From the NCBI GenBank assembly GCA_900320225.1, contig ONRL01000015.1, forward strand, positions 24,383-88,382: a DNA stretch of 64,000 nt. Direction: 5' to 3'. This stretch comes from an uncultured Lentisphaerota bacterium. GTDB lineage: Bacteria > Verrucomicrobiota > Kiritimatiellia > RFP12 > UBA1067. Below, piece after piece: positions 44,791 through 62,104 of the stretch. A program made the position numbers and the translations under genes. The notes under the pieces are model-generated. The model was not told where the DNA came from and ran no database searches. It saw only the letters and a program-made list of their open reading frames with translations. Numbering within the stretch: the first letter of the stretch is position 1; each line of letters opens with the position of its first letter.

Positions 44791-45058
44791 CTTGTGCGGC
44801 CGAGAATGGTATGATAAACTATCGGCGCTTTCGGGAATTGATGCCCCCGGTGGGGCTATACAGCGAAAGCCGTCCGGACGGGACCCATGTCTGGAGTGCA
44901 TGGGATCCTCTTGGGCCGGGTAGCGAGATCCTCCGCTGAAAAACGCGGACGCCACTTCGGTGGATGGCTGGCAGGGCCGATTCCAAACTGCAGCGGCGGC
45001 GTGTGCCGTCGGTGATGTGCAGGAATACATCCCGCATCGCGGGAGAAAGGAATCGGTT

Positions 45059-47170: not shown

Positions 47171-47422
47171 TCCCCGCGTGCCGCCGATTTGGTATACTTA
47201 TTTCGCCTCGTTCGGAAGGGTGGGGTAAGATAGCCCAGTGACGAGACCCGCCGCCGGGAGGGCCGACAGGATCGGCCAGCGAATTGCAAACCTTGTCTCT
47301 TGAGAATTTGGACCTTCGATACGCTGACACGTGGCTTGCAAGACGATACCCTTTTAACTTGGGGTGTCGCCTTGCCAGGTAGTTTAGCGGGCTGTCCAAG
47401 GCCTTCAAGAGTGCGTGGCATA

Positions 47423-47481: not shown

Positions 47482-48843
47482 ATGAGCGAGCGGAGGAAAT
47501 GCGATGTTCGACATGACTCCTTGCCATGTGGCAAGGGGCAGGATGTCGTATGCCCTACGCATGTTGCTACTGCTGCCAGGTGTGATAAAAAGCGGATAAG
47601 GTTCATTGACCTCTTTGCGGGATGTGGTGGTTTGTCGGAAGGGTTTATTCAAGCTGGATATACGCCAGTCGCTCATGTGGAAATGAATGAGGCTGCCTGC
47701 TTCACGCTCAAGACCCGGATGGCCTATCATTGGCTGAAGAAGAACGGCAAGCTTGCCGACTATTGCGCTTACTTGAGAGGTGAAATTTCACGGGATGAGT
47801 TCTACAAAAAGATTCCTTCGCAAATTCTTGATTCGGTTATCAACGAAGAGGTTGGCGAAAAGACATTGGAGTCTCTGTTCGAAAAGATTGATGCGGCAAA
47901 GGGGGAGGAGACAATTGATCTGATCGTGGGCGGTCCGCCGTGTCAGGCCTATTCGCTGGTCGGACGGGCGAGGAAGTCTATGGAGGGGAATCCTCGCAAT
48001 TACCTCTTTCGGTATTACATTGAGTTCCTTAAGCACTACAAGCCGAAATGCTTTGTGTTTGAAAATGTCGTTGGTCTTCTATCCGCAGCAGACAAAGACG
48101 GCAACAAGTATCTTGATATGATGATTGACGGCTTCAAGGATGCAGGATACACCACTTCCTACGAGACCATCAATACGAAAACGCTTGGCATCCCACAGGC
48201 GCGTAAGAGGGTCATCATCATCGGCGTTCGCGGGAAGAAGAAGTTCAAGTACCCTAAGATGCGCGGCAGGCCATTCAAGTACACGGTCAATGAGATGTTG
48301 GATGGCTTGCCGGCGTTGCCCGCTGGCGGTATAGCGGAACCTTTTGACATCAAGGTGTCCGGTGATACTAAGGCGGCATTAAAGGCAACAGGTGTTCTGG
48401 ATGAAGCTATTCCGGTGACGCAGCATCAGGTTCGTCCGAACAATGCGAATGATTTGGAAATTTACAAGCGGGTTGTTGAGCTCTGGAACAAGGAGCATAA
48501 GCGACTGAGCTATGACACCTTGCCGGCAAGATTGCAAACCCATACAAACCGCAAGACTTTCAAGGATCGGTTTAAGGTCGTGGCGAGTGATGAGAAGGTC
48601 TGTCACACGGTTGTTGCACACATTCACAAGGACGGTCATTACTATATCCATCCTGACATCGAACAGAATCGTTCGATTTCGGTTCGCGAGGCCGCACGCT
48701 TGCAGACCTTTCCGGACAACTATTATTTCGAGAGCAGTTCGAAACGTCCCGGACGCGCCGCACCCTATCGTCAGATCGGCAACGCCGTTCCGGTGATGTT
48801 TGCGAAGAAGATTGCGGAAGCAATGAGAGGCTTGTTGAAGTGA
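47482..48843 (+). CDS. dcm: DNA (cytosine-5)-methyltransferase
   Basis: motif I FIDLFAGCGG, motif IV GGPPCQAYS, motif VI FVFENVVGL, motif X RQIGNAVPV. Confidence 0.9.
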   Translation: MSERRKCDVRHDSLPCGKGQDVVCPTHVATAARCDKKRIRFIDLFAGCGGLSEGFIQAGYTPVAHVEMNEAACFTLKTRMAYHWLKKNGKLADYCAYLRGEISRDEFYKKIPSQILDSVINEEVGEKTLESLFEKIDAAKGEETIDLIVGGPPCQAYSLVGRARKSMEGNPRNYLFRYYIEFLKHYKPKCFVFENVVGLLSAADKDGNKYLDMMIDGFKDAGYTTSYETINTKTLGIPQARKRVIIIGVRGKKKFKYPKMRGRPFKYTVNEMLDGLPALPAGGIAEPFDIKVSGDTKAALKATGVLDEAIPVTQHQVRPNNANDLEIYKRVVELWNKEHKRLSYDTLPARLQTHTNRKTFKDRFKVVASDEKVCHTVVAHIHKDGHYYIHPDIEQNRSISVREAARLQTFPDNYYFESSSKRPGRAAPYRQIGNAVPVMFAKKIAEAMRGLLK

Positions 48844-50948
48844 AAAAGGAACGGATTGCATTTAAGACGCGTGCAAGATTGCTTTGCCAGCTTGGTGAGC
48901 AACTCATCAAGTCTGAAGACATTGCCTTATTGGAATTGATAAAGAATTCCTATGATGCGGATGCGACATATTGCAATGTGCTGATGGAGAACGTTGCGGA
49001 TCCGAAAAATGGACGCATTGTTATTGATGATGATGGTTGTGGAATGAGCGCAGAACGTATTCGCCATACTTGGTTGGAGATCGGCACGAACTTCAAGGAG
49101 AGCCTTGCGGCGGATGAAGCGACCAAGAGGACTCCGAAGTTCAAGCGGATGCGCCTGGGAGAAAAGGGGATTGGGCGTTTCGGTGTGCATCGACTCGGGC
49201 ATAAAATTGATGTATATAGCAAGTCTGCGGATTCGCGGCTGGAAGCGCATTTGGCTATTGATTGGCGAAGTGCTGAGAAAGCGGAAATGATTGAGGATGT
49301 GCCGGTTTCTCTCACGGAGGATATTCCGCATTATTTCAAGGGAAAGAAAACCGGAACGCTTATCGTCATTACCAATTTGAAGGGTGAATGGACGCGAAAG
49401 ATGGCGCGAGACGTTGCACGGGCTATTGCGACGCTTAATTCTCCATTTGAGGAACAGGGAGAGTTTGTTCCGACGCTGAAGTTCACGGGACAAAGAGGCG
49501 AGGGCAAGTGGATTGACGGCATTGTTACATTCGATGAGATTCGTGCTAAGAGTCTCGGGTCGTTCGAAATTATGCTGAGGGGGAATCGAATTAAGAGCTT
49601 TGAGTATCATTTCACGCCGTGGAAGGTTATGGACAAGCTTCAGCCCCGTATGGTGAAGTGGGACTCGAAACATACCGAAGCGCGTTTGATTACGGAGGAT
49701 GATGAAGAGATCGATTTGTCCGAGATCGGAGAGGTGAGTTTCAAGGGGCTTGTCTTTGATTTGGATACAAAGATCCTGAAGCTTGGAATCCAAGATGTTG
49801 TGGGCTTCAAGGGTTATCTTCAGGCCAATGGTGGTGTCCGAGTTTACCGCGATAATATGCGGGTTCTGAATTACGGAGAGCCGGATGACGATTGGCTCGA
49901 CTTGAATTTTCGGCGCGTGAACCAGCCGACGCGCAAGGTAAGCTCAAATGTAATCATTGCCGCAGTCGGCCTTTCGCGTGAAAGCAGTGGTGCGTTGCGG
50001 GAAAAAGCGAATCGCGAGGGCTTTCTGAAGAACGCAGCATTCATGAAGCTTCGGAATGCCATCTTGTACGCGCTCAGCAAAGTTGAGCTTGAACGCAGCG
50101 TTGATAAAGATAGTATTCGCGCGGCTTATGGGAAGAAGGCTGAGATTAAAAATCGTCATGTGACGATGGATGACTTGCGGGCGGATGTCGAGACTTACGT
50201 CAAGAACAAGGTTGCGCGGAAGAAGATGTTGCAATGTATCGACCGTGTAGAGGATCAGTTTGAGGAATTTGCCGATTCTTTGATCAAGAGTGCAGGGGCG
50301 GGCCTAAACTTGTCGATGGTCATCCATCAAATGGAGAAAATCATCAAGAACGTTAAGGCCATGCTACGCAAACGAGGGCACGAGTCCGATGTGGCAAAGC
50401 AAATCGATTCACTGGCATTGCTGATTGAAGGATACAGCATCCTCATCCGTGAGTCTGATCGCAAGGTGCGCAATCTCGATGAGATTGTTGAACAGTCTGT
50501 GTATAATGTCGGATTTAGGTTGTCTGCGCATAAGATTGATCTCGTGGATGCGTATAAAAAGCGTGGAAAATGTCTGGCCTTGTGTACGGAAAACCATGCC
50601 ATTAACGCAATGCTGAACCTTTTCGACAATTCGATTTGGTGGCTGGGCTATTCGAAAACCGAATCACCGAAGATTTATGTGGATATCGTTGAATCGAAGT
50701 TGTATAAGGATTCGATTGCGATTGTTGTTGCTGATAATGGGCCGGGGTTCTCACGGGATCCGGAGGAGATGATCAAGCCGTTTGTCACTTCCAAACCTAA
50801 TGGCATGGGCATTGGGTTGCATTTGACGAATGAGATAATGTTGTCTTTGGGCGGGAAACTCGATTTTCCTGCAGCGAAGGATGTTGGCGTTCCAAAGGCA
50901 TTTGCCAATGGCGCCATAGTTGCCTTGGTGTTTCCGAAGGAGGCCTAA
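48840..50948 (+). CDS. MORC-like GHKL-superfamily ATPase (HATPase_c_3) large protein, 702 aa
   Basis: Bergerat ATP-binding motifs LELIKNSYDADATYCNV...VIDDDGCGMS...GEKGIGRFG. GTGA overlap with dcm stop, so translationally coupled. C-terminal ~400 aa unassigned. Confidence 0.7.
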   Translation: MKKERIAFKTRARLLCQLGEQLIKSEDIALLELIKNSYDADATYCNVLMENVADPKNGRIVIDDDGCGMSAERIRHTWLEIGTNFKESLAADEATKRTPKFKRMRLGEKGIGRFGVHRLGHKIDVYSKSADSRLEAHLAIDWRSAEKAEMIEDVPVSLTEDIPHYFKGKKTGTLIVITNLKGEWTRKMARDVARAIATLNSPFEEQGEFVPTLKFTGQRGEGKWIDGIVTFDEIRAKSLGSFEIMLRGNRIKSFEYHFTPWKVMDKLQPRMVKWDSKHTEARLITEDDEEIDLSEIGEVSFKGLVFDLDTKILKLGIQDVVGFKGYLQANGGVRVYRDNMRVLNYGEPDDDWLDLNFRRVNQPTRKVSSNVIIAAVGLSRESSGALREKANREGFLKNAAFMKLRNAILYALSKVELERSVDKDSIRAAYGKKAEIKNRHVTMDDLRADVETYVKNKVARKKMLQCIDRVEDQFEEFADSLIKSAGAGLNLSMVIHQMEKIIKNVKAMLRKRGHESDVAKQIDSLALLIEGYSILIRESDRKVRNLDEIVEQSVYNVGFRLSAHKIDLVDAYKKRGKCLALCTENHAINAMLNLFDNSIWWLGYSKTESPKIYVDIVESKLYKDSIAIVVADNGPGFSRDPEEMIKPFVTSKPNGMGIGLHLTNEIMLSLGGKLDFPAAKDVGVPKAFANGAIVALVFPKEA

Positions 50949-50949: not shown

Positions 50950-52260
50950 ATGGAATTGCCACAGAACGCGCGTGTTGCCATCGTCGATAATGTGTATGGC
51001 GAGGTGGAAGGGCTGATGGAGGCGCTTGCATCAAAAGGAGTGCCTGTTGTTTACTATCAGGGACAGAAGAAATTTCCAAAGCTGCCTTTGTCTGGCATTC
51101 GTTTATTGTTTCTTGATTTAGAGCTAGATGGCCTTGAGGGGCAGTCTGATAAGGCCAAAACGGCGACTGCGGCTGCAAATGCATCCACTTTAATCGCACC
51201 TGGTAATGGCCCGGTTGTGATTGTGCTTTGGACTAAGCACAGCGGTAAAGGTGTCGTGGACCGGTTTCGTGGTTATCTGAAGGGTCATATGACAAATCCT
51301 TACTTTGTTGTGTGCATGGATAAGGCGAGTTGTCAGGACAAGGCTGGTAAGTTTTCTACGGCACGAATCAAACGGAACCTTTCCCTGAAGTTGGCGGGGG
51401 CAAATGTTATTGGACTGCACACGACGTGGGAAAATGCGCTTTTCAAGGGCTCTGTGAAGTTGGCAGATCGTGTAGCTGCCATCGCGTCCGCAGATGAGGA
51501 CTGGCAGATCGTGATCTCACGTATGTTTTATAAGCTTTATAAGGCGAATAGCGAGAAGGTCGAGCTTAAAACGCTGAAAGAACAGTTCTTAAGTGCTTGT
51601 TCATTGTATGGTGCGGGGTTGCTGAATGCGATTAACTTCGAATTGTCTCGTTCTTCGTTGTCTTGCGGCAAGAGGTTTTCCTTGGTGAAGGAGAAACTTG
51701 CCGGAGACAGAGAGGCGAGGTTGAATGGATTGCTGAATGCTTTCCTTTATTACGACAAAGACCGAGCCGATCCCAATGTGCCAGGGACTGTATATGCGGT
51801 TCGTTCTGGTGGTGCGGACATTAAGTGTGGCATTGTGGCAGATTTCTTTGTGGAGAAATCGGCGCAGAAAGTGATTCGGAGCAAGGTCGCAAAAGATGTT
51901 CGTCTCTGTAAGATTGTTGTAACGCCATCTTGTGATTGCTCACAGAAAAAGGAGTTTCGATCTGGAGGTGGAAAAAAGTCGAAAACCTATGACCGAGTCG
52001 TATGGGCGCTGCTGGTGAATCGAGCCATGGGTGCGGAGTACATTGAACGTAAATACCGCAAGACCAGATGCTATTTGCTGGAGGGCTTTGAGTATGACGG
52101 CGGCATGTACGATCTGCTGATTGATCTCGACACATTGGGTTTTGAGGTCCTTGACCTCAAGAAACAAAGTCGCCTGTTTACTCTAACATCGATGGTGCTG
52201 GCCGATGTTCAGTCCAAATTGGCGAATCAGCTGAATCGCATAGGCATTGTATCGGTATGA
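50950..52260 (+). CDS. hypothetical protein with N-terminal receiver-like (CheY-fold-like) region; C-terminal part unassigned
   Basis: ARVAIVDNVYGEVEGLMEALASKGVPVVYY...IRLLFLDLELDG pattern of alternating beta/alpha with an acidic pocket. 1-nt gap to upstream stop; ATGA overlap with downstream start. Confidence 0.45.
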   Translation: MELPQNARVAIVDNVYGEVEGLMEALASKGVPVVYYQGQKKFPKLPLSGIRLLFLDLELDGLEGQSDKAKTATAAANASTLIAPGNGPVVIVLWTKHSGKGVVDRFRGYLKGHMTNPYFVVCMDKASCQDKAGKFSTARIKRNLSLKLAGANVIGLHTTWENALFKGSVKLADRVAAIASADEDWQIVISRMFYKLYKANSEKVELKTLKEQFLSACSLYGAGLLNAINFELSRSSLSCGKRFSLVKEKLAGDREARLNGLLNAFLYYDKDRADPNVPGTVYAVRSGGADIKCGIVADFFVEKSAQKVIRSKVAKDVRLCKIVVTPSCDCSQKKEFRSGGGKKSKTYDRVVWALLVNRAMGAEYIERKYRKTRCYLLEGFEYDGGMYDLLIDLDTLGFEVLDLKKQSRLFTLTSMVLADVQSKLANQLNRIGIVSV

Positions 52261-53132
52261 ATATGCGTTGTTGTCGATACATGAAGTTTGGTTACGCGAA
52301 TGCGTCTTTGAGGGATAACTTCTTCAGAGTTAGCGGTCCGCTGGATTTTAATGATCCATTCGAATGCAGAGGATGCTATATTCATTTTGATGAGGCGTTG
52401 CGAAAGTATGTTCATCAGAACTTTGAGAGATTGAGGTTTGAGTCTATACGTCGAACTAATTCAACGACGCCGGAACTTCAAGCAAGGTTTACGGAAGAGT
52501 TCCTGTTTAAGACATACTTTGATTCAGCATCCCGATCGCTTGACAGTTCTTGGATTAACGCTGTTAATGAAACGGTTTTGATGTTGTGCTTTGTCAAGGA
52601 GCGAGGGTTGAAGCCCACCTCTGACGTTTTGTTCTGGTCGCATTACGCGGATTCTGGCAAGGGTGTCCGTATTGTGTTTGACTTGCCCGAAAGACCACGG
52701 GGGGGCGTTTATTATATGAAGGAAGTTGAGTATTGTGAGAAGGTGCCAGCATTTGACTGTCGGAAGATGGATGCTTGGCTTCAAGGGAAAGAATTTCAGG
52801 ATTATTTGGAGCGTATTTCACATGTGAAGGGGAAGGCTTGGGAATATGAGAATGAAATCCGAATGATTATACCACGGCGCATTCCTGAGCAGATGAAGCG
52901 AGTGCCGTTTGCTCATTTGTGTCCTCGTGAGAAAGACGGGGTAACACATTATTTTGTGCGAATTAATTACGATGCGATTCGGCGCATAGATTTTGGACCG
53001 CATGTTGATTTGAAACAGGCAGTGCGGTTAATTGAAGACCTGAAGCACGAAAAAGGTACTGGGCACATAGCATTCTGGCAAGCAACGTTGGGCTCAGGAT
53101 CATACACGTACATTTATCAGAAAGTGGCATAA
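52257..53132 (+). CDS. DUF2971 family protein
   Basis: N-terminal MKFGYANASLRDNFFRVSGPLDFNDPFE matches the DUF2971 signature (...FNDPFE); overlaps upstream stop (ATGA). Confidence 0.6.
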   Translation: MNMRCCRYMKFGYANASLRDNFFRVSGPLDFNDPFECRGCYIHFDEALRKYVHQNFERLRFESIRRTNSTTPELQARFTEEFLFKTYFDSASRSLDSSWINAVNETVLMLCFVKERGLKPTSDVLFWSHYADSGKGVRIVFDLPERPRGGVYYMKEVEYCEKVPAFDCRKMDAWLQGKEFQDYLERISHVKGKAWEYENEIRMIIPRRIPEQMKRVPFAHLCPREKDGVTHYFVRINYDAIRRIDFGPHVDLKQAVRLIEDLKHEKGTGHIAFWQATLGSGSYTYIYQKVA

Positions 53133-53186: not shown

Positions 53187-53735
53187 ATGGCGATATGCAT
53201 CAATAAATTAAAATCCTCTCAGGTCCTTGACGACTGTCAAAGGTCGTTGGATTTGTTGGAGAATGTGCCGGATGGGGACAAGCAGTTGTTCCGCATCTAC
53301 TGGACATTCTGCTTGGTAGCGTTACGCAGTGTTGAAGATGCCTTGATAAAAAATGATGCAAAGAGGTATCCAGAAATGATGGCGCCGTTAAAAGAGAGGC
53401 ACAATCAGCTTATGGCGCTTAAAACAAAATACCCGGACAATATAAAGTACGAAGAGTGCGATAGTGACGATTATTTAATCTACCACCGTCTTATACGCGG
53501 TGAGCGTAATTCTGCGGTCCATGAAGCGGCTCAAGCTTATGTAGATGGTATGTGGTCTATGGTTGCTGATAAAGGCCTTGCCAATTGGGGTAATACTTAT
53601 CTGCCGATGTGGGATTTTGACAAATGGGGACTCGATGACTGTAGGGATTGGATGCAAAGAGGGATAGATTGGTGGAGAAAAGAGATAGAATCCATTGCGA
53701 CTAAAGCCATTGAAGCACAAGGGAAAGAAAAATGA
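53187..53735 (+). CDS. hypothetical protein, Trp-rich
   Basis: 182-aa ORF 55 nt downstream of the DUF2971 gene, same strand; no recognisable motifs. Confidence 0.4.
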   Translation: MAICINKLKSSQVLDDCQRSLDLLENVPDGDKQLFRIYWTFCLVALRSVEDALIKNDAKRYPEMMAPLKERHNQLMALKTKYPDNIKYEECDSDDYLIYHRLIRGERNSAVHEAAQAYVDGMWSMVADKGLANWGNTYLPMWDFDKWGLDDCRDWMQRGIDWWRKEIESIATKAIEAQGKEK

Positions 53736-54361
53736 TTTTCAGACTTGGAGAACTTTTTTGTGCCCCAGGAGGTTTGGCTTGGGGTGCCACGCATGCAAAC
53801 ATAGGTAATCCAGAATGGTGGATACAACATGCATGGGCGAATGATTATAGCGTGCGATATTGTTTGCATGGGCAATGCAACTTCCCAATGGAATATAAAT
53901 CGATAAATCGCGCATTGTGTTTGTGCGCTTGATTCGTATGGACGATTTTAAGCTGGTCAACACATCAGGGAGAGAGCGATGACCACGATAGAAGTAAATA
54001 CTATTAGGAATTATGCAGAGATGATACTTGGACATATTAAGGAGTCTAGGTGTAGGCACAAGAAAATATCGTGTAAGGCATTAAAGTTTTGGAGTGCGGC
54101 CATATACAACTTTGCCGAACAGAGTAGACGCTTTGAGAATCATCTTCCTATTGGACGTGAGGGGATAGAATTTATTTCGGAGCATTAATGATGAGTAACG
54201 GCTTGCATAACGGCGATAAAACTCAGGACGATTCTCTTGTTCTTCTGGATGAGGAATGGCCTTGTTACAGTGTGAAGTCTATCTTCAATGCGGTCATGGC
54301 GGTTTGGCTTGCGGAGCCGAGATGTTCCTTTGTTCTTCATCAGTGAATCGGAGGCACTTGG

Positions 54362-56485
54362 ATGATCAATAAGGCAGATTTCTCGGTATGGCTGTCAAGT
54401 GGCAACAAAGAGAACAGCGGCAAAGCCCGCAGTTATTTGACTGCGCTTAACGACATAGATCAAATCCTTCATTCACTCGTCAAGGAGTTTGACTCGCCAA
54501 GTGTTTTTGAGTTGCCAAAGCATTCGCTTGAGACACTTCGCGAATTCTTCATAAAGGAATCAAAGAATTCAGCATCGGTAATATTGGGGATGCAGGGACT
54601 TCATGGTAGTTCGTATCTCAAAAATCGCTTTTACTCCGCAAGTGTCAGCAAGCTGTTGGACTATCTATTAGAGAAGCAGGGAACAGAATCGATTCGTTTT
54701 TCTGGATTTCCAGATCACCTCTCCATTGCGCTGAGGGTCTTTGCCGAAAAGCGGTATGCGGCAGAATGGCAGGACAAGACGAGCAAGGATGGCTATCAGA
54801 ATATCTACGACATGGCAGCGATGACGCCGGAGCAGATTGCCGCAGGGTCGCTTGACGATTTCTACAATGATTTCCTGTTGAAGATCTGGGCGTTCAAGAA
54901 TGGCGGCAGTCGGCGATATGGACAGCTTGACGAGGCAGGTAGAAAAGCCTATCGGCAGTTCGTTGTTGATTTGAAGACGCAGCTCAAGAGCTTTGACTCC
55001 TACTTCCCGCCCAATACGCAATGTCCCGATGGCATGGGCGTGGGCGTGCTTACGGAGTTGATGATGCGCTTCTGGCCGAATTCGTGTTGCAACTACAACG
55101 CAAGTCTCATCCACGAGGCACTTGTTACGTTACACATGGCGGAAGGGGACTTCGTCTGGCCGAAAACGCCGTCCGTCTATCAGGATTTCATGGGCAAGTG
55201 TGCGACTATCCTGCTCAAGATGGAGCAGATGAAACTGCCGCGCCGTTCCGATCCCGGCAATGACGAGCCGCCGGACTACATCACCGTGAACGAGTTTCTG
55301 TGGTTCGTCCGCGAGTACAAGGATTTAATTCAGGAGGAAGTCATGAGCAAGAAGATGAAAACCGATGCGCCTACGAAGTATGACGAAGGCAAGCGCAAAA
55401 CACTCGCGTTCGATCCTAATTCAAAGGATGACGAACTTCTTCTGCGTCTGCTTGCCGCGCTTCGCGCCAAGCCGTTCGCCATCCTCGCCGGACACTCCGG
55501 CACTGGCAAGAGCCGCTATGTGAAGAAGCTTGCGTACATGACCTGCAACATGGACGAGCTGCGTAACGAAAAGCAGCTGCCGGGCAACTATCTTCTCCTT
55601 CAGGTCAAGCCCAACTGGCACGATTCCACCGAACTGCTTGGTTTCCGCAACGCGATGGACGGCGACCGCTACCAGAAGACCAAGCTTATCGAATTCCTTT
55701 TCCGTGCCTATCAGTTCAAGGACACGCCATTCTTCCTCTGCCTTGACGAGATGAACCTTGCGCCGGTTGAACAGTATTTTGCCGAGTTTTTGAGTTCGAT
55801 GGAGTCTGCGGAACCTGTTCCGCTTAATGACATCACCGTGAAGGACGACAATCTTTTCGATCTTGGTTGCGAATGGAAAGCCGCTTACGATTACTTGGCG
55901 GCGAACGGCTTCTCCATCCCGAAGAATCTGTTCATCGTCGGTACAGTCAACATGGACGAGACGACCAACCAGTTCTCGCGCAAGGTTCTTGACCGTGCCT
56001 TCACGATAGAGATGACGGATGTCGACTTTAAGAACTACGGACATGTCACCCAGCCGAGTTATGCCGACACCATCGAGGAAGAAAAGATACAGGCGCTTCT
56101 CAATGGGGAGAAGTTCGTGGATAAGCTTGATGCCGAGGATGTAGCTGAGGGCGCGCCTCTTGTCAAGGTACAGAAAGCCCTGGAGCCAACTGCGTTTGCG
56201 GTCGCATATCGCTTCGCAAACGAATACACGCTTCTGAAAAGGGCGATTGCGTGTTTCGACAAGGACAGTACGATGAAGCTGGACGCGCTTGACCAGGCCG
56301 TTCTAATGAAGATCCTGCCGCGTGTTGCGGGCGAAAAGGATTACATTGAGAAGGTCTATGGCAAGAACGATAACGAGGGTCTTCGGAAAGCGCTTGAGGG
56401 GAAGTCTGTCTCGCTTAAGAAAATTGCCGAGATCATGAAACGCGCCAATGACATGAACGCCCAGTACATCACGTTCTGGCCATGA
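54362..56485 (+). CDS. mcrB: McrB-like AAA+ GTPase subunit (type IV methyl-dependent restriction), with long N-terminal domain
   Basis: FAILAGHSGTGKSRYV (Walker A), FFLCLDEMNLAPVEQYFAEF (McrB-type Walker B), NLFIVGTVNMDETT (sensor). Confidence 0.7.
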   Translation: MINKADFSVWLSSGNKENSGKARSYLTALNDIDQILHSLVKEFDSPSVFELPKHSLETLREFFIKESKNSASVILGMQGLHGSSYLKNRFYSASVSKLLDYLLEKQGTESIRFSGFPDHLSIALRVFAEKRYAAEWQDKTSKDGYQNIYDMAAMTPEQIAAGSLDDFYNDFLLKIWAFKNGGSRRYGQLDEAGRKAYRQFVVDLKTQLKSFDSYFPPNTQCPDGMGVGVLTELMMRFWPNSCCNYNASLIHEALVTLHMAEGDFVWPKTPSVYQDFMGKCATILLKMEQMKLPRRSDPGNDEPPDYITVNEFLWFVREYKDLIQEEVMSKKMKTDAPTKYDEGKRKTLAFDPNSKDDELLLRLLAALRAKPFAILAGHSGTGKSRYVKKLAYMTCNMDELRNEKQLPGNYLLLQVKPNWHDSTELLGFRNAMDGDRYQKTKLIEFLFRAYQFKDTPFFLCLDEMNLAPVEQYFAEFLSSMESAEPVPLNDITVKDDNLFDLGCEWKAAYDYLAANGFSIPKNLFIVGTVNMDETTNQFSRKVLDRAFTIEMTDVDFKNYGHVTQPSYADTIEEEKIQALLNGEKFVDKLDAEDVAEGAPLVKVQKALEPTAFAVAYRFANEYTLLKRAIACFDKDSTMKLDALDQAVLMKILPRVAGEKDYIEKVYGKNDNEGLRKALEGKSVSLKKIAEIMKRANDMNAQYITFWP

Positions 56486-56504
56486 TCGGAGACTTCCTGC
56501 GGTA

Positions 56505-58589
56505 ATGTCTGAAACTGTCTACACATATACGCATGGCGATGTCTTTACGCTGAAGGTGATGGGCCGAAACGCCGGCCGATACGAGGCGTACTGCAAGCGC
56601 ATCGGCGTGGAAGAAGGCTCTGACGAGAGCCGTGTGGACATATCTTCTCCCAACGGAGTGGAGCAGATGGAGCCGCCCTTCTTCGAGACACGCTATTTCT
56701 TGCGGTGTGACTTCAAAGATGCGTCTATCCGCGACGCAGTGTTCTTCCATAAGATGGCCAGCGTTTCGGAGGCGTTCGACTTTGACGGCAAAACGCTCGT
56801 GGGTGTACTTGATTTCGTGAACGCTCCGGGCAAGTTCCACTTTGAGATAGTCTGGTATCGCGGCGGCGTTCGCGAATCGGCGGCATTTGACTGGATAGTT
56901 GTGTCTGAGAAGCTTAACGTCCAAAGTGATTACAAAGAAATCGTCACGACTATCGAGGAGAATGCGCCTGGGTTGGTGCGGGCGTTTCTTGCGAAGTCAA
57001 AGGGCGCGGCGGGGCTTATCCGTCGCGACGACACCAATGACGCAATTTGGGCGGATATTTTCAACGAGATCGGCGACCGTTATCAGAGAGCGTGCGAGTG
57101 GATCGTGAACAGGCCGCACCTCAAGTACATTTCGGAAGTCGAGTATCGGCGAGCAGGACTGGTCAAGCGATGGACGCCGGGCTTGGTCAACAGTTATGCG
57201 ACCATGGGCAAGGGGCGGCGAGCGGTTGCTCTTTTCAGGACGGAACACATATCGCCGCAGGTTGATACGGTAGAGAATAGGTTCGTCAAGTTCACCTTGC
57301 GGAGTGTCGTTGCAAGGTTGGAAAAATTCGCGTCTGTCTGTGAGGGGCACAAGACGGTCAGCGAGGTGTTCGTAAAGGACCTGCGGGCGCGGGCGGCGAG
57401 ACTTGCCAAGACGATGCGCAATCCTTTTTTCGTCGGCGTGGGACATTTCACGGGTTTGCGTCAAGAGAGCATGGTTCTGCAGCGGCGGCAGGGATATGCG
57501 GACATCTATGCGACATGGTTGATGCTCAAGCATACTCTCGATACAACGCAAACGGGTCTGGCAGTTGGACACAGGCCGATCAGCGCGCTCTACGAGTTCT
57601 GGTGTTTTCTGCGCATGGCAGATTTGCTGGAGAAGGACTTCGGATTTGGACGCCCGGAAGGTATGATAGACGGGGCTAAGGTCTATGACGACCTCTTCGA
57701 AGAACCGGACCCTGACAAGATTGACACCACGACGCTCTCTGCACTGACGTACAAGTTTCCCGAAAAAGATGGGGTTTCCATTAAACTACTGTATCAGCAG
57801 AACTACGGCAAGGAGACTGTCGATGGAGATTTGGCTTACTATAATCCGCAACGGCCTGACATTGTGCTAGTGATTGAACGCGGGAAGGATGTGTTCACTT
57901 ATCTGTTCGACGCCAAATACCGCATTGATGAGCGTGGTGGGAAGGATGCTTCCCCAGCTGAGCCGATCAACGACATGCATCGTTACAGAGATGCGATTTT
58001 GTATCGTTCACAAGAGGATGACCGTAAGTTGTCTCGGCAGATCGTTGGCGCGTATGTGCTCTATCCCGGCCGGCCTCTGCCACAGAGCTACAACTACGCG
58101 GAACTGATCAAAAACGAGAACATCGGCGCCATCCCTCTTCTGCCAGGCGAGGATGGCGGGAGCGCACTAAAGTCATTCATTGGCGAAATTCTCAGTAAGA
58201 AGACCCCGGAATCGCACCTTTCCGCCGACATCCCGACTCGCGGCACCACGGTGGTCGTCGGGAAGGACGAGGGCGTATTTCTTGAAAATGAAGTCGTGTA
58301 CGGGACATACGCGGCAGGGCAGCTTGATTGGATTCTTGAGAAGCACATGTACAATCTGCCGGTGGAAGAGTCTGAGAAGTTTGGCATCGTGGATATGGCG
58401 ACGGCCGAGCAGAAGAAAATTCTTTATCTTGTTGCTTTTCGTGGAACCGGTAGTCACCGTGTTTTCAGGCTTCTGCCCGGTGTGCGTAAAGTGACGCCGA
58501 ATGACTTGTGGAAAATGGGATATCCTAGGCAATGTCGCTATGACGAATACTGGTTGTTTAAGTTAGGCGAAGAACTAGGGCTAAGGTAG
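56505..58589 (+). CDS. mcrC: McrC-like partner nuclease (PD-(D/E)xK), enlarged 694-aa variant
   Basis: PD-(D/E)xK core RPDIVLVIE...LFDAKYR near C-terminus; 20-nt gap after McrB-like gene. Confidence 0.6.
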   Translation: MSETVYTYTHGDVFTLKVMGRNAGRYEAYCKRIGVEEGSDESRVDISSPNGVEQMEPPFFETRYFLRCDFKDASIRDAVFFHKMASVSEAFDFDGKTLVGVLDFVNAPGKFHFEIVWYRGGVRESAAFDWIVVSEKLNVQSDYKEIVTTIEENAPGLVRAFLAKSKGAAGLIRRDDTNDAIWADIFNEIGDRYQRACEWIVNRPHLKYISEVEYRRAGLVKRWTPGLVNSYATMGKGRRAVALFRTEHISPQVDTVENRFVKFTLRSVVARLEKFASVCEGHKTVSEVFVKDLRARAARLAKTMRNPFFVGVGHFTGLRQESMVLQRRQGYADIYATWLMLKHTLDTTQTGLAVGHRPISALYEFWCFLRMADLLEKDFGFGRPEGMIDGAKVYDDLFEEPDPDKIDTTTLSALTYKFPEKDGVSIKLLYQQNYGKETVDGDLAYYNPQRPDIVLVIERGKDVFTYLFDAKYRIDERGGKDASPAEPINDMHRYRDAILYRSQEDDRKLSRQIVGAYVLYPGRPLPQSYNYAELIKNENIGAIPLLPGEDGGSALKSFIGEILSKKTPESHLSADIPTRGTTVVVGKDEGVFLENEVVYGTYAAGQLDWILEKHMYNLPVEESEKFGIVDMATAEQKKILYLVAFRGTGSHRVFRLLPGVRKVTPNDLWKMGYPRQCRYDEYWLFKLGEELGLR

Positions 58590-58606
58590 TGGGAGATTGA
58601 GGCGCC

Positions 58607-58684
58607 ATGGGACTCGTCAAGACCAGAAGACTTGTGGCAATGCGGAAGCAGTTACGCCCCCTGTCAGGGTTGCAGCAAGAATGA
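58607..58684 (+). CDS. small ORF (25 aa, MGLVKTRRLVAMRKQLRPLSGLQQE), paralog of 61961-62104
   Basis: GGGAG RBS; first 15 residues conserved with the second copy despite synonymous DNA divergence. Confidence 0.35.
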   Translation: MGLVKTRRLVAMRKQLRPLSGLQQE

Positions 58685-58731: not shown

Positions 58732-60630
58732 ATGAAAATCATTTATACATACATTGCAGATTTCCCGCCTTTCAAGAATGCGGAAATGAATTTCGTATCA
58801 GATTATAGATGTAATTTCAATGGTGAGAAGTTAAGAATAAAACATTCGAAAGTCTTGCCCAAAGGGTTCTTTTCGCATGATGACCGATTGTGTGTGTCCG
58901 CAGTAGTGGGCCCAAATGGAGCGGGAAAGACTTCTCTCATCCGTTTCTTGAGATCACTCATGTATCCTGTGCAAAAGCAAGAATTCGTTCTTGTTTTGGA
59001 GGCAAAAGGAGATATAATTGTTTACTATAACTTAAACGGCGGAAGAATCCAAGTTGAGGGAGAGGGATGTAAAGTAAAATCCGTCAATAATCGTTACGAG
59101 AATACTGAATTTATGCAGGATGCCATTTCGACTTGCTTCAATGTTGTGTACTATTCGCCGCACTATTCGTTGTCTGTACCTTTCCGATTTACAAATGACG
59201 ATTTTGTAAACCTCTCTACGACATATCTTTTGAACAATACTATGGATGGTTCTTCTAGTCAGGCCAGATGTGTCAGTTCGTCAATCTTTATTGCAGAAGA
59301 ATTTTATCGTCTTGTCCGTTTCTATGAAGCATGTAAAGATATGTCTAATGTCGTTGAGCAAGTTCCGAAGGGTGTCGCATTCGTACCAGACACTCAAACA
59401 TTGGAATTTATTTTTCAATATTATTCTGAACTGCTTAATAAGGAGAAAGTTCGTATCAAGGAGATTCGTAAAGGTATTGTTGTTGGTGAAAGGGAACTTA
59501 CTAATAATGAAATGCAGCGTATAGAGACGATGCTGTCTTTTCTTGGATTTGATTTTGACGATGCCTTTATGTGTGTGTTCCAGTGTTTTGTGGCGATTAT
59601 TTGGCAAAGGAAGATATTCAATGATAAGTTTCTTAATGGAAAGGAATACGGATGTCTTTTGCTTGATTTTTGTGCGTCATTAATTGATTCAGACAATATG
59701 GACAAAAGAACCATTCGTAGTAAAGTCATTAACTTTTTGAAATTGAACAAGCCAGAACAAATTGGGAAGCTAGAATATTTGAATGAGGATGCAAGTAGTA
59801 TTAAGGAAGAAAATCCTTTATTCGCATTTTTTAAAATCCTTAGTGACTTAACATCTCACAGGGGTGGCGAAGGAGAAGTTTACCTGCAAATGCCGTGGAA
59901 CAAATTAATGAAGAACCTAGAGTTTGTAAAAGAACTGTATGGGTGCACGACTGCGATCGGGGCATTTGTTGAGTGGCGTTTTGATCCACCAATGTCATCT
60001 GGTCAATATACTTTGTATTCTTTCTATGCTCGCCTATACGAGTATTTCGTTAATATTAGAGACTGTGTTGCTGGGTACGACGGAAGTGACTTCTCGCATG
60101 AATGGGCTTTTCACATGGAGTCTGGCTGGATTGTGATACTGGATGAAGTAGAGGTGACTCTACACCCAGAATGGCAACGGACGATAGTATCGAATGTTTT
60201 GCATGTGTTTAAGGAATTCTTTAAGGGGTTTAATGTACACCTAATCTTTGCAACGCATTCGCCGATATTGCTGTCGGATGTGCCGGCTGGCAATGTGGTA
60301 TTACTTGATAAAGGCAGGGTGATTAACGGACAAACTAAAGACGGAGAGGAATTCAAGCCTTTCGGCTTTGGTGCGAACATTTATGACTTGTATCGCCATT
60401 CGTTCTTTCTAAAGAATGGCGCCGTAGGGTTATTCGCGCGAAAGAAGATAGATGATGTGGTAAGAAAAATATGCGAGTTACTTGAACCATCGAAGAAGAG
60501 CAAAAAGGAACCCGAAGATAAGTTTAATTATGATGAAGCGAACAAGATTTCCAATTTGGTTGCAGATCCTATTGTCAGGAAATATCTCAAGTCTGTAATA
60601 CCATTAGCGAAGGAACGGGCAAATGCGTAA
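58732..60630 (+). CDS. ABC/SMC-like AAA ATPase (AAA_15/AAA_21 type), Septu PtuA-like
   Basis: Walker A VVGPNGAGKTSL, Walker B/D-loop IVILDEVEVTLHPEWQ, H-loop ATHSP; low GC. Confidence 0.6.
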   Translation: MKIIYTYIADFPPFKNAEMNFVSDYRCNFNGEKLRIKHSKVLPKGFFSHDDRLCVSAVVGPNGAGKTSLIRFLRSLMYPVQKQEFVLVLEAKGDIIVYYNLNGGRIQVEGEGCKVKSVNNRYENTEFMQDAISTCFNVVYYSPHYSLSVPFRFTNDDFVNLSTTYLLNNTMDGSSSQARCVSSSIFIAEEFYRLVRFYEACKDMSNVVEQVPKGVAFVPDTQTLEFIFQYYSELLNKEKVRIKEIRKGIVVGERELTNNEMQRIETMLSFLGFDFDDAFMCVFQCFVAIIWQRKIFNDKFLNGKEYGCLLLDFCASLIDSDNMDKRTIRSKVINFLKLNKPEQIGKLEYLNEDASSIKEENPLFAFFKILSDLTSHRGGEGEVYLQMPWNKLMKNLEFVKELYGCTTAIGAFVEWRFDPPMSSGQYTLYSFYARLYEYFVNIRDCVAGYDGSDFSHEWAFHMESGWIVILDEVEVTLHPEWQRTIVSNVLHVFKEFFKGFNVHLIFATHSPILLSDVPAGNVVLLDKGRVINGQTKDGEEFKPFGFGANIYDLYRHSFFLKNGAVGLFARKKIDDVVRKICELLEPSKKSKKEPEDKFNYDEANKISNLVADPIVRKYLKSVIPLAKERANA

Positions 60631-61786: not shown

Positions 61787-61960
61787 GCTAACAGGTACGA
61801 GTCGCAAGCCCCATTGGTGGAGGAGCCCGCGAGGGGTGATCTCATTGGTGAGTAGGAGTGGTGGATTAGTCATGGCCATGCAACAGAAAGGCAACGAGAG
61901 ACGCAGAGGTAGCCCTCGTTGATATGGTAACACTGACACAGTAACGCGAGAGGTGAGATC

Positions 61961-62104
61961 ATGGGACTCGTGAAAACAAGAAGGCTGGCGGCGATGCAGA
62001 AGCAGCAGCGCGCGAAGGCGGGGATGAAGCCGCCGGCACCAAAACCTACGCGAATGAATGGTTGCAGGAACGCAACGAATTTCGAGTCAATGAAACGCGG
62101 TTAG
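61961..62104 (+). CDS. small ORF (47 aa, MGLVKTRRLAAMQKQQRAKAGMKPPAPKPTRMNGCRNATNFESMKRG), paralog of 58607-58684
   Basis: GAGAGGTGAG RBS; sits 13 nt upstream of the DUF262-HNH gene. Confidence 0.35.
   Translation: MGLVKTRRLAAMQKQQRAKAGMKPPAPKPTRMNGCRNATNFESMKRG

What the first reader, a model, noticed from the sequence alone, without database searches (positions are those of the whole stretch)
54362..58589. Enlarged McrBC-like pair encoded next to a C5-methyltransferase
The McrB-like AAA+ (707 aa) and McrC-like PD-(D/E)xK (694 aa) proteins are much larger than E. coli McrBC. They sit about 600 bp downstream of the dcm-containing operon. A methyl-cytosine-dependent restriction enzyme beside a resident m5C methylase implies non-overlapping specificities. 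Alternatively this is an LlaJI-like arrangement where the McrBC-like subunits are the restriction component of an R-M system.
Basis: partly seen in the sequence, partly recalled or inferred. Interest (0 to 1): 0.55.

Follow-up and report, generated by a model that had tools for sequence, protein, structure and literature searches.

The report
Methylase-linked McrBC-like restriction pair
The two large genes are an intact McrBC-like motor-plus-nuclease pair of a variant branch that normally sits in one operon with DNA cytosine methylases, so it most likely cuts DNA that lacks the host's methyl mark, the opposite of E. coli McrBC.

Summary
ORFs 54362-56485 (707 aa) and 56505-58589 (694 aa) are an intact McrB-like AAA+ protein and a McrC-like DUF2357 + PD-(D/E)xK nuclease. 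The McrB signature is NxD (GTVNMDE), not E. coli's NxxD. That places the pair in the NxD, methylase-associated, two-component-associated branch catalogued by Bell et al. 2024 but never characterised.

The 627-bp "gap" is not a spacer. It holds the first 44 codons of a decayed m5C methylase and the start of an earlier McrB N-terminus. In close relatives (McrC 97.5% identical) the pair ends one operon: GHKL kinase-like, receiver, two m5C methylases, a restriction enzyme, McrB, McrC. In 80 metagenome loci every McrB is NxD. Of the 62 loci with enough upstream DNA, 50 carry an upstream m5C methylase.

The extra size comes from swappable modules. McrB has a family-specific helical head and a second helical domain with a tentative HhH-glycosylase-like fold. 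McrC has a YTH/ASCH-like (PUA-like) C-terminal tail.

The best reading is an LlaJI/PcaRCI-like restriction arm of a methylase-linked system. Methyl-dependent Type IV action is not excluded. I rate it a new member of a known but poorly studied kind, of moderate interest.

The parts
54362..56485 (+). McrB-like AAA+ NTPase of the NxD branch (707 aa). Domain order: head (res 1-107), linker motif DHLSIALRVFAEKR (118-131), second helical domain (118-333), AAA+ (about 360-707).
   Evidence: ORF. Motifs. PADLOC PDC-M26A 3.5e-37. 7999 homologs found. AF2 model of res 1-345, pLDDT 88.3.
54362..54682 (+). N-terminal 'head' module (res 1-107), an all-alpha, swappable cassette. The cassette as a DNA unit spans about 54320-54668, including its own GGAGG ribosome-binding site.
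   Evidence: Only 12 clusters among 1.84 billion representatives; 11 lie in the same McrB-like family or are fragments of it, and the weakest (P0251, E 6.4e-5) is a repetitive protein of doubtful relevance. L012 shares DNA similarity only over 54320-54668. L001 similarity resumes at 54671. Homologs 97-98% identical cover only about res 120-707.
54713..55360 (+). Second all-alpha domain (res 118-333) with a hairpin-like GMGVGVLTELMMRFWP (224-239). Tentatively a non-catalytic HhH-GPD/OGG-like DNA-binding fold. Also exchangeable between relatives.
   Evidence: AF2 model. The best structural matches are MutY and archaeal Ogg, but they are not significant (E>=0.8, prob<=0.72). Pfam OGG-like matches 2 of 29 family members, best E 0.08. 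P0030 and P0036 carry the same head with a different middle domain.
55439..56482 (+). AAA+ domain. Walker A 55490-55513, Walker B 55730-55756, NxD signature GTVNMDE 55940-55960, FSRKVLDRA 55973-55999.
   Evidence: Best PDB sequence hits are E. coli McrB at E 0.1-0.3.
56505..58589 (+). McrC-like nuclease (694 aa). DUF2357 (56802-57518), PD-(D/E)xK PDDEXK_7 (57588-58070) with PD...DAK at 57852-57923, and a variable C-terminal tail.
   Evidence: Pfam 5.6e-31 and 2.5e-28. Motif. 97.5% identical to the McrC of the intact L001 operon. dN/dS 0.094.
58272..58586 (+). McrC C-terminal tail (res about 590-694): a PUA-like (YTH/ASCH/EVE superfamily) fold and candidate modified-base reader. Swappable; about half of the homologs carry other tails after the conserved DIPTRGTTVVVG.
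   Evidence: AF2 pLDDT 86.2. Foldseek hits: YTHDF2 4rdo prob 0.99, E 1.4e-2, TMq 0.52; ZmASCH 5y6c; S. marinus McrB N-domain 6n0s. Tail variability. Invariant aromatics Y20, W30, Y37, F75, Y94, Y103, W104 of the 115-aa segment.
53732..53863 (+). Vestige of an m5C methyltransferase gene: the first 44 codons including motif I (ELFCAPGGLAWGA). Its ATG overlaps the stop of the 182-aa gene.
   Evidence: 77% aa identity to residues 1-44 of the MTase that precedes McrB in L001 and L023. Sequence read.
54188..54346 (+). 52-codon ORF in frame with mcrB, ending in a stop 15 nt before its ATG. It is a vestige of the alternative (P0001-type) McrB N-terminus.
   Evidence: GDKTQDDSLVLLDEEWPCYSVKS matches residues 8-38 of P0001 and the starts of many other homologs, 42-66% identity, E down to 1e-10. 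Translation.
47482..48843 (+). Intact C5 cytosine DNA methyltransferase (453 aa), first gene of the co-directional string.
   Evidence: PF00145 3.3e-60. TIGR00675 dcm 6e-53. PADLOC DrmMII-type model 1.3e-152.
48840..50948 (+). GHKL ATPase (702 aa): N-terminal MORC/Hsp90-type HATPase_c_3 and C-terminal histidine-kinase-type HATPase_c. Counterpart of the HEF_HK 'paraMORC' kinase-like proteins in relatives.
   Evidence: Pfam 3.6e-21 and 1.5e-16. Homologous to the GHKL genes of L001, L011, L013 and L015. The L001 and L008 versions carry PF19191 HEF_HK.
50950..52260 (+). 436-aa protein (446 aa from the TTG at 50920) in the position of the receiver-domain partner. Receiver-like N-terminus (VAIVDN...LLFLDLELD) and a C-terminal SCDC motif. 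The receiver identity is inferred, not shown.
   Evidence: No Pfam hit. BLASTP to the positional equivalent in L078 gives 2e-8 (N-term) and 3e-5 (C-term). The equivalents in L001, L008 and L048 are PF19192 Response_reg_2. The profile link to those is not significant.
52257..53132 (+). DUF2971 protein (291 aa), a recurrent accessory gene between the GHKL/receiver module and McrB.
   Evidence: PF11185 1.2e-6. PADLOC PDC-S31 2.2e-23. 51% identical to the gene in the same place in L011. Also present in L018 and L074.
53187..53735 (+). 182-aa protein of unknown function, a recurrent accessory gene.
   Evidence: No family hit. 58% identical to the 174-aa protein of L015. Also present in L023.

Best explanation
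The pair is a functional McrBC-type machine of the NxD branch.

Inferred from the E. coli and T. gammatolerans McrBC paradigm: the 707-aa protein forms an NTP-driven AAA+ ring. It is targeted to DNA by its exchangeable N-terminal modules, a family-specific helical head and a second helical, possibly HhH-like, domain. The 694-aa partner docks through its DUF2357 domain, stimulates hydrolysis and cuts DNA with its PD-(D/E)xK site.

Inferred from context: unlike E. coli McrBC, this branch is the restriction arm of a methylase-linked (R-M-like) system. A co-encoded C5-cytosine methylase marks host DNA, and unmarked incoming DNA is cut, as shown experimentally for LlaJI and PcaRCI. In this lineage the unit is further joined to a paraMORC-type GHKL kinase-like protein and a receiver-like protein that probably regulate or extend it.

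Shown in this window: the methylase that normally lies directly before mcrB has decayed to 44 codons, and the McrB head has been replaced by another cassette. The intact methylase at 47482 is the only one left. Relatives with just one methylase at the head of the operon show that this layout can exist.

Speculative: the YTH/ASCH-like tail on McrC may read the methyl mark or another modification, either to veto cutting of self DNA or to add a second target class.
For: Family and intactness:
- Walker A, Walker B, NxD and the arginine motif are present and invariant in relatives.
- DUF2357 plus PDDEXK_7 with PD...DAK are present.
- dN/dS is 0.06-0.12 against relatives in intact operons.
- The identical 707-aa McrB-like protein is carried on 12 metagenome contigs; the 4 places shown, from 4 samples, have the same gene order.

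Operon membership:
- The gap holds a 44-codon MTase vestige, 77% identical to the McrB-adjacent MTase of L001 and L023. Its ATG overlaps the upstream stop.
- L001 reads GHKL/HEF_HK, Response_reg_2, MTase, MTase, NgoFVII-like REase, McrB, McrC.
- L011 reads MTase, GHKL, receiver-like, DUF2971, MTase, McrB, McrC.
- L013 reads N6/N4 MTase, GHKL, X, McrB, McrC with a single MTase.
- L015 has a comparable layout.

General linkage:
- All 80 metagenome loci (AAA+ identity 36-99%) have GTVN[MV]D.
- 50 of 62 loci with at least 1.3 kb upstream have an m5C MTase upstream, 38 directly adjacent on the same strand.
- 8 of 30 loci with at least 5 kb upstream also have the GHKL gene.
- Plasmids of cultured bacteria show the same triad. 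Caballeronia has Vsr, m5C MTase, AAA (GTANMDE) and DUF2357 as adjacent co-directional genes, with overlaps or abutting ends among the last three. Rhizobium has N6/N4 MTase, AAA (GTVNVDE), DUF2357.

Experimental precedent for the direction of action:
- LlaJI has two 5mC MTases plus an McrB-like R1 and a PD..D/ExK R2, and restricts unmethylated DNA (PMC1459862).

Clade: Bell et al. 2024 describe NxD GTPases associated with MTases, with extra domains on McrC and with two-component genes (PMC11090510).
Against: - No biochemical or genetic data exist for any NxD-branch enzyme (Bell et al.).
- The directly adjacent methylase is lost here, yet both restriction genes stay intact in natural populations. 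That is easier to tolerate for a modification-dependent enzyme than for a classical restriction enzyme.
- The McrC tail has a fold best known for reading methylated bases.
- Whether the remaining methylase (47482) matches the specificity of the new head is unknown.
- That methylase could belong only to the GHKL module. The N-terminus of the GHKL protein resembles BbrUII/HgiDII-type restriction enzymes, 1e-22 but below the curated cut-off.
- 12 of 62 informative loci show no upstream m5C MTase.
- I could not check whether PcaIA or LlaJI.R1 carry NxD or NxxD.
Confidence: 0.6

Rival explanations
1. It is a Type IV (modification-dependent) restriction enzyme like E. coli McrBC. It cuts DNA carrying a modified base, read by the YTH/ASCH-like tail of McrC and/or the McrB N-terminal domains. 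The neighbouring methylases belong to other systems and make marks it does not recognise.
For: - The McrC tail has a PUA-like/YTH/ASCH fold with many invariant aromatic residues.
- The adjacent methylase has decayed without loss of the nuclease genes, and this state recurs in several metagenome samples.
- The island also carries another Type IV-like gene, GmrSD_N + HNH at 62118-63458.
- Canonical McrBC is Type IV.
Against: - A same-strand, often overlapping m5C MTase sits directly upstream in most relatives and in plasmids of cultured bacteria. That would be dangerous for an m5C-dependent nuclease.
- The two studied systems with this gene layout cut unmethylated DNA.
- The McrB N-terminus lacks every known methyl-cytosine reader fold.
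Confidence: 0.25
2. The pair is a decaying or silenced remnant. After loss of its own methylase and the adjacent restriction gene it is no longer expressed or active, and it survives only because the deletion is recent.
For: - The region just upstream is a graveyard: an MTase vestige, a vestige of an older McrB start, and an unassigned 69-codon ORF.
- No promoter-like signal above chance lies before mcrB.
Against: - Both ORFs are full length with every catalytic motif.
- A GGAGG ribosome-binding site lies 8 nt before the ATG.
- dN/dS is 0.09-0.12 against the intact L001 operon.
- The same configuration occurs in 4 samples among the 12 contigs that carry the identical McrB.
- The new head is itself a conserved module found in other full-length proteins.
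- Single-methylase operons of the same order exist (L013).
Confidence: 0.07
3. The pair is an RNA-targeting or abortive-infection effector like the CoCoNuT systems of the same NxD branch. It would be switched on by the GHKL kinase-like and receiver proteins rather than acting as a DNA restriction enzyme.
For: - It shares the NxD branch with CoCoNuTs.
- YTH-like domains in that branch were proposed to read methylated RNA.
- Receiver-domain proteins with HEPN-like C-termini occur in L011 and L015, on weak evidence.
Against: - There are no coiled-coils: the longest helix in the McrB N-region is 23 residues.
- There is no HEPN or other RNase domain in either protein.
- The PD-(D/E)xK site is intact, not inactivated.
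- The tight linkage is to DNA methylases.
Confidence: 0.05

Closest known systems
NxD-branch, methyltransferase-associated and two-component-associated McrBC systems (the 'yellow' clade of Bell et al., eLife 2024, PMC11090510)
   Same: - The NxD signature is followed by E (GTVNMDE).
- The pair is associated with a DNA methyltransferase.
- A GHKL/histidine-kinase-like gene and a receiver-type gene lie in the same gene string.
- McrC carries an extra domain.
- McrB has small modular N-terminal domains rather than coiled-coils.
   Different: That clade is only mentioned in the paper and deferred to a later publication, so no member has been described or tested. In this window the McrB-adjacent methylase is a 44-codon vestige. 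The receiver identity of the 436-aa protein is not statistically established.
PcaRCI (M.PcaI + PcaIA + PcaIB) of Pectobacterium carotovorum (Birkholz et al., NAR 2022, PMC8989522)
   Same: [quoted passage not shown] It acts in defence against phages and plasmids.
   Different: PcaRCI is a three-gene unit with no GHKL/receiver module. Its activity on unmethylated DNA is shown; here that is inferred.
LlaJI (M1, M2, R1, R2) of Lactococcus lactis pNP40 (O'Driscoll et al. 2006, PMC1459862)
   Same: 5mC methylases are co-oriented with an McrB-like GTPase subunit (R1, which determines specificity through a unique N-terminal half) and a PD..D/ExK subunit (R2). It behaves as an R-M system.
   Different: The window's McrC-like protein gave no Pfam match beyond DUF2357 and PDDEXK_7, so none to RE_LlaJI. 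The solved H. pylori LlaJI.R1 N-domain is a beta-barrel (my own knowledge), whereas this N-terminus is all-alpha. LlaJI has no GHKL/receiver genes.
E. coli K-12 McrBC (Type IV)
   Same: An AAA+ protein with Walker A and B motifs sits directly upstream of a DUF2357 + PD-(D/E)xK partner. The best PDB sequence matches are E. coli McrB.
   Different: - The signature is NxD, not NxxD.
- There is no DUF3578 methyl-cytosine reader.
- Both subunits are about 250-350 aa larger.
- The pair is linked to methylases.
- It probably has the opposite relation to methylation.
Response_reg_2 / HEF_HK 'two-component-like' modules next to C5 methylases (Bellieny-Rabelo et al., GBE 2021, PMC8011034)
   Same: The upstream triad of C5 methylase, GHKL (HATPase_c_3 + HATPase_c) and receiver-like protein matches the layout described there. 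The L001, L008 and L048 versions hit PF19191 and/or PF19192.
   Different: That paper does not mention McrB or DUF2357 partners. [quoted passage not shown]

Membership tests
Canonical McrBC (E. coli type, Type IV) | AAA+ domain with Walker A and Walker B | tested here: met
   GHSGTGKS (377-384) and FFLCLDEMN (457-465), invariant in 17 relatives.
Canonical McrBC (E. coli type, Type IV) | NxxD GTPase signature (MNxxDRS) | tested here: not met
   The sequence is GTVNMDETT, that is NxD followed by E. All 80 related loci are also NxD.
Canonical McrBC (E. coli type, Type IV) | Partner gene directly downstream with the McrC N-domain (DUF2357) and a PD-(D/E)xK nuclease | tested here: met
   PF09823 5.6e-31 and PF04411 2.5e-28. 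PD...DAK is intact. The gap is 19 nt.
Canonical McrBC (E. coli type, Type IV) | N-terminal modified-cytosine reader (DUF3578/ADAM, or a YTH/PUA-like domain) on McrB | tested here: not met
   No Pfam hit in res 1-345. AF2 shows two all-alpha domains. Foldseek returned no match at E<=0.001, and the listed top matches contain no reader folds.
Canonical McrBC (E. coli type, Type IV) | Cleavage depends on DNA methylation and GTP | not testable with these tools
   Needs biochemistry.
NxD-branch MTase/two-component-associated McrBC (Bell et al. 2024) | Strictly conserved NxD, usually followed by E or D | tested here: met
   GTVNMDE. N185 and D187 are invariant in alignment A3.
NxD-branch MTase/two-component-associated McrBC (Bell et al. 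2024) | Contextual association with DNA methyltransferase genes | tested here: met
   An intact m5C MTase at 47482 lies in the same gene string, and an MTase vestige at 53732-53863. 50 of 62 related loci have an upstream m5C MTase.
NxD-branch MTase/two-component-associated McrBC (Bell et al. 2024) | Two-component-type genes (kinase-like and receiver) in the operon | tested here: inconclusive
   The GHKL protein with a C-terminal HATPase_c is clear. The receiver identity of the 436-aa protein rests on position, motifs and similarity to L078. The profile link to PF19192 is not significant. Close relatives L001 and L008 have bona fide PF19191 and PF19192.
NxD-branch MTase/two-component-associated McrBC (Bell et al. 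2024) | Additional domains fused to the McrC homolog | tested here: met
   The C-terminal tail is PUA-like/YTH/ASCH. An N-terminal stretch of about 100 residues lies outside DUF2357.
LlaJI / PcaRCI-type R-M with a McrBC-like nuclease | Co-oriented cognate methyltransferase(s) adjacent to the two restriction genes | tested here: inconclusive
   The adjacent MTase is reduced to 44 codons. An intact MTase lies 5.5 kb upstream in the same orientation. Whether it is cognate is unknown.
LlaJI / PcaRCI-type R-M with a McrBC-like nuclease | R1 is an McrB-like NTPase with a unique N-terminal DNA-binding half; R2 is a PD-(D/E)xK subunit | tested here: met
LlaJI / PcaRCI-type R-M with a McrBC-like nuclease | R2 belongs to Pfam RE_LlaJI (LlaJI proper) | tested here: not met
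   Only DUF2357 and PDDEXK_7 were reported at E<=0.01. PcaIB is likewise annotated DUF2357.
LlaJI / PcaRCI-type R-M with a McrBC-like nuclease | Restricts unmethylated DNA; methylation protects | not testable with these tools
   Needs transformation or phage assays with and without the methylase.
CoCoNuT (coiled-coil nuclease tandems) | [quoted passage not shown] | tested here: not met
   The AF2 N-region consists of 19 short helices, the longest 23 residues, in two globular domains.
CoCoNuT (coiled-coil nuclease tandems) | Extra nucleases (HEPN etc.) and/or an inactivated PD-(D/E)xK in the McrC homolog | tested here: not met
   PD...DAK is intact. No HEPN or other nuclease domain was found in either protein.

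The most novel reading that the evidence does not exclude
The locus could be a snapshot of a self-diversifying restriction platform. A conserved NxD motor-nuclease core would exchange target-reader cassettes on both subunits: McrB heads and middle domains, and McrC PUA-like tails. The exchange would happen by recombination at conserved linker motifs. This would let the same core switch between methylation-protected (R-M) and modification-dependent (Type IV) modes, under control of a paraMORC kinase-like/receiver phosphorelay. The methylase loss and head swap seen here would be one such switch caught in the act.
Probability: 0.12. Interest if true: 0.75.

Novelty: new member of a known kind. 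Interest (0 to 1): 0.42.

Why it matters
McrBC is the textbook methyl-dependent restriction enzyme, but a very large branch with an NxD signature is wired to methylases, and no member has been tested. This locus and its near-identical relatives offer a compact natural series.
- The core is the same (at least 90% identity) across the series.
- At least five different N-terminal reader modules sit on that core.
- The McrC tails are exchangeable.
- Versions exist with and without the adjacent methylase and restriction gene.

Such a series would make three questions directly testable. How does an McrB-type motor couple to unmethylated versus methylated targets? What does the shortened NxD motif do to nucleotide use? 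What do the GHKL kinase-like and receiver genes add to restriction? Practically, systems like this shape gene flow and phage resistance in rumen Kiritimatiellae.

Tried and rejected
- A word-indexed homolog search with the head alone found only 2 fragments and was uninformative. The exhaustive search was needed.
- Pfam on ten different N-terminal regions found nothing except BpuJI_N on a relative, P0115.
- Profile searches of the McrB N-region and the McrC tail against PDB sequences gave only chance hits, ferritin among them.
- I tried to prove that the window's 436-aa protein is a Response_reg_2 receiver. A leave-one-out HMM and hhalign were not significant. Only similarity to L078 holds.
- I looked for inverted repeats or silent cassettes that would indicate a shufflon-type phase-variable head. 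None were found near mcrB.
- The promoter and terminator scan of 53-59 kb was not above shuffled expectation, so the transcription units remain unresolved.
- I suspected MTase-McrB fusions because plasmid records annotate the AAA+ gene as 'DNA methyltransferase'. Pfam finds no MTase domain in it, so I rejected this.
- CoCoNuT membership is rejected: there is no coiled-coil and the nuclease is intact.
- The 69-codon ORF at 53979-54188 matched nothing in any related locus or in Pfam.

Full report
**1. Observation**

The window carries two adjacent + strand ORFs at exactly the stated coordinates: 54362-56485 (707 aa) and 56505-58589 (694 aa), 19 nt apart. They lie in a low-GC island (43-53% GC from about 46 kb to the window end) inside a 60-69% GC genome. 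The island is packed with defence genes. The nearest genome hits are rumen Kiritimatiellae MAGs, with McrC up to 97% identical.

**2. Identity of the two proteins**

The 694-aa protein is clearly McrC-like.
- DUF2357 (the McrC N-terminal domain) scores 5.6e-31 over res 100-338.
- PDDEXK_7 scores 2.5e-28 over res 362-522.
- The catalytic motif PD(451)...DAK(469-471) is intact.

The 707-aa protein is only weakly recognised by general libraries.
- AAA_5 scores 7.5e-4, NCBIfam McrB 0.0086, and the best PDB sequence hits are E. coli McrB at E 0.1-0.3.
- It does carry Walker A (GHSGTGKS), Walker B (FFLCLDEMN) and FSRKVLDRA, all invariant in relatives.
- PADLOC PDC-M26A scores 3.5e-37.
- The McrB signature reads GTVNMDE. 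This is NxD followed by E, not the NxxD of E. coli.
- Bell et al. 2024 (PMC11090510) define a major branch of McrB-like GTPases by exactly this shortened motif.
- They also note a sub-branch associated with DNA methyltransferases, with extra domains on McrC and with two-component genes. They left it for a later paper.
- I found no later paper.

**3. What makes the proteins large**

An AF2 model of McrB res 1-345 (pLDDT 88.3) shows two all-alpha domains, 1-107 and 118-333, built of short helices with no coiled-coil.

The head (1-107):
- An exhaustive search of 1.84 billion representatives found only 12 clusters. Eleven lie in McrB-like proteins of this family or fragments of them, at the N-terminus or internally. 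The weakest (P0251, E 6.4e-5) is a repetitive protein of doubtful relevance.

The second domain (118-333):
- It contains a hairpin-like GMGVGVLTELMMRFWP.
- Its best structural matches are HhH-GPD glycosylases (MutY, archaeal Ogg), but without significance: E>=0.8, prob<=0.72.
- Pfam's OGG-like family is hit weakly by 2 of 29 family members.
- By eye, the position of the catalytic Asp is not conserved.
- I therefore call it tentatively a non-catalytic HhH-like DNA-binding module.
- None of the known McrB reader folds (DUF3578, YTH, PUA, B3-like) is present in the N-terminus.

The McrC tail:
- The last roughly 105 residues of McrC (AF2 pLDDT 86.2) match YTH domains (YTHDF2 prob 0.99, TMq 0.52), an ASCH protein and the PUA-like N-domain of S. 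marinus McrB.
- This points to a PUA-like fold of the modified-base-reader superfamily, with several invariant aromatic residues.
- About half of the McrC homologs carry unrelated tails after the conserved DIPTRGTTVVVG.

**4. The 'gap' and the upstream operon**

The upstream genes are tightly coupled.
- m5C MTase 47482-48843 and GHKL ATPase 48840-50948 overlap by 4 nt.
- The 436/446-aa protein and the DUF2971 protein overlap.
- The 182-aa protein follows, ending at 53735.

The 627-bp interval before mcrB is degenerate coding sequence.
- 53732-53863 encodes the first 44 residues of an m5C MTase, including motif I. It is 77% identical to the MTase that precedes McrB in L001 and L023. Its ATG overlaps the stop of the 182-aa gene.
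- 54188-54346 is a 52-codon ORF in frame with mcrB. Its first roughly 30 residues match the start of the alternative N-terminus found in P0001 and many other homologs.

The pair was therefore once the distal end of the same operon. A deletion removed the adjacent methylase, and in the L001 layout also a restriction gene. The McrB head was replaced as well.

**5. Related loci**

- The identical 707-aa McrB-like protein is carried on 12 metagenome contigs. The four places shown, from four samples, share the window's gene order.
- L001: McrC 97.5% and McrB backbone 93% identical. Order: GHKL/HEF_HK, Response_reg_2, MTase, MTase, NgoFVII-like REase, McrB, McrC.
- L011: MTase, GHKL, receiver-like, DUF2971, MTase, McrB, McrC. 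This is the intact version of the window's order.
- L013: N6/N4 MTase, GHKL, X, McrB, McrC with one methylase only, next to the ribosomal/SecY operon.
- L015: adds an HNH_2 enzyme and three MTases.

A metagenome scan with an AAA+ alignment returned 80 loci at 36-99% AAA+ identity. I annotated them with locally built HMMs.
- Every McrB has GTVN[MV]D.
- 62 of 80 have the McrC gene directly downstream.
- Of 62 loci with at least 1.3 kb upstream, 50 have an m5C MTase upstream, and 38 have it directly adjacent on the same strand.
- Of 30 loci with at least 5 kb upstream, 8 also have the GHKL gene.
- The exceptions carry TPR, MazG-like, MTaX1/DUF4420 or Type I genes.

Plasmids of cultured bacteria show the same triad.
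- Caballeronia pSBC2-5 has Vsr, m5C MTase, AAA (GTANMDE) and DUF2357/PDDEXK_7 as adjacent co-directional genes. The MTase and AAA genes overlap by 4 nt, and the AAA and DUF2357 genes share their boundary base.
- Rhizobium sp. 007 has N6/N4 MTase, AAA (GTVNVDE), DUF2357.

The conserved core is therefore MTase, McrB(NxD), McrC. The GHKL/receiver pair, the module described by Bellieny-Rabelo et al. 2021 (PMC8011034), is a frequent add-on. It is nearly constant among the window's close relatives.

**6. Cassette exchange**

- Homologs 97-98% identical to the window protein align only from about residue 120 onward and carry other N-termini.
- Among 23 clusters with at least 90% backbone identity there are at least five unrelated N-terminal-most modules. 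One relative carries a BpuJI_N DNA-recognition domain.
- P0030 and P0036 have the window's head but a different second domain.
- At the DNA level, L012 matches the window only over 54320-54668: RBS, ATG and head.
- L001 similarity resumes at 54671, at the conserved DRLxxALKxFAEKR linker.
- The McrC tail is exchanged in the same manner.
- No inverted repeats or silent cassettes suggest programmed switching. This looks like ordinary recombination between alleles in a population.

**7. Is it alive?**

Both ORFs are complete with all catalytic motifs, and a GGAGG lies 8 nt before the mcrB ATG. dN/dS against relatives is 0.094 (McrC vs L001), 0.124 (McrB backbone vs L001), 0.06 (vs L011) and 0.109 (vs L008). 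There is no support for the 'further frameshifts' caveat.

**8. Mechanism**

*Shown:* the domain content, the intact motifs, the conserved operon partnership with methylases, the decayed methylase and the swapped head.

*Inferred from the McrBC paradigm* (Niu et al. 2020 and Nirwan et al. 2019, as cited): a hexameric NTPase ring, McrC insertion through DUF2357, NTP-driven translocation and PD-(D/E)xK cleavage.

*Inferred from context and from LlaJI and PcaRCI*: methylation by the linked MTase protects host DNA, and unmethylated DNA is cut.

*Unknown:*
- the nucleotide preference of NxD enzymes;
- the target sequence;
- whether the remaining methylase (47482) covers the new head's targets;
- the role of the YTH/ASCH-like tail;
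- the role of the GHKL/receiver pair.

The main rival is Type IV action, at about 0.25.

**9. Comparison and membership**

The pair works like McrBC but fails two defining features of the canonical family: the NxxD signature and an N-terminal methyl-cytosine reader. It meets the sequence and context criteria of the NxD methylase-associated clade. It resembles PcaRCI most closely in gene layout and in the DUF2357 subunit with large extensions. It is not a CoCoNuT. Details are in the membership table.

**10. Verdict**

This is a real, intact and well-conserved system. It is a new member of a catalogued but uncharacterised kind. The locally new points are:
- the recombination scars, which show that the pair belonged to the methylase operon;
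- the cassette-like heads on a near-identical core;
- the YTH/ASCH-like tail on McrC.

Interest is moderate (0.42).

Noticed in passing
window 47078-47176: A run of CCAA / ACCAACCA short tandem repeats, 10 overlapping copies of a 32-nt register. It lies about 300 bp upstream of the m5C methylase ATG at 47482. It could be a phase-variable tract controlling the methylase operon.
   Followed up: no
window 58606-58676 and 61960-62030: A 71-nt direct repeat (73% identical) brackets the PDC-M62A/B pair: ABC-type ATPase 58732-60630 and HNH-like 60623-61786. In L001 the small ORF right after mcrC matches window 61961-62044 (78% aa). The two-gene cassette therefore looks inserted behind mcrC, duplicating the start of a small ORF. 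L012 has the same pair after McrC.
   Followed up: partly
window 48840-50948: The N-terminal GHKL domain of the 702-aa protein resembles BbrUII/HgiDII-family Type II restriction enzymes (NCBIfam 1e-22, below cut-off) and PADLOC REase_II models (5.9e-11). The methylase + GHKL + receiver-like trio may therefore be an R-M-like unit in its own right.
   Followed up: no
L011:5586-6506 and L015:4149-5051: In these relatives the receiver-like protein is short (300-306 aa) and ends in an RxxxxH motif (RNVFAHR / RNKLAHQ). Pfam hits to HEPN_Cthe2314 and Abi_2 are only faint (E about 0.1). This hints that the receiver can be fused to a HEPN-type effector.
   Followed up: partly
window 52257-53132 and 53187-53735: A DUF2971 protein (PADLOC candidate PDC-S31) and a 182-aa unknown protein recur between the GHKL/receiver module and McrB in several relatives: L011, L015, L018, L023 and L074. 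This suggests accessory roles.
   Followed up: partly
window 53979-54188: A 69-codon ORF sits between the methylase vestige and the old McrB start. It has no match in any related locus or in Pfam, and its origin is unexplained.
   Followed up: partly
window 53768-53788 and 54298-54318: A 21-nt direct repeat (86%). One copy lies inside the methylase vestige. The other lies exactly where the old-head vestige ends and the new head cassette begins (cassette similarity to L012 starts at about 54320). It may be microhomology used in the rearrangement, or it may be chance.
   Followed up: no
window 43413-46855 and 62118-63458: More defence-type genes flank the locus: a HipA_C-like kinase (per L004 annotation), a DUF4062 + HATPase_c_4 + HTH protein, and a GmrSD_N (DUF262) + HNH Type IV-like enzyme. 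Copies of the island in metagenomes continue with Nmad3 and AbiEii genes.
   Followed up: no
L099 (Rhizobium sp. 007 plasmid) 3105-5123, and H10/H11: Public records annotate the NxD McrB-like gene as 'DNA methyltransferase'. Pfam finds only an AAA domain in it, so this is a likely annotation error that has propagated across rhizobial plasmids.
   Followed up: yes
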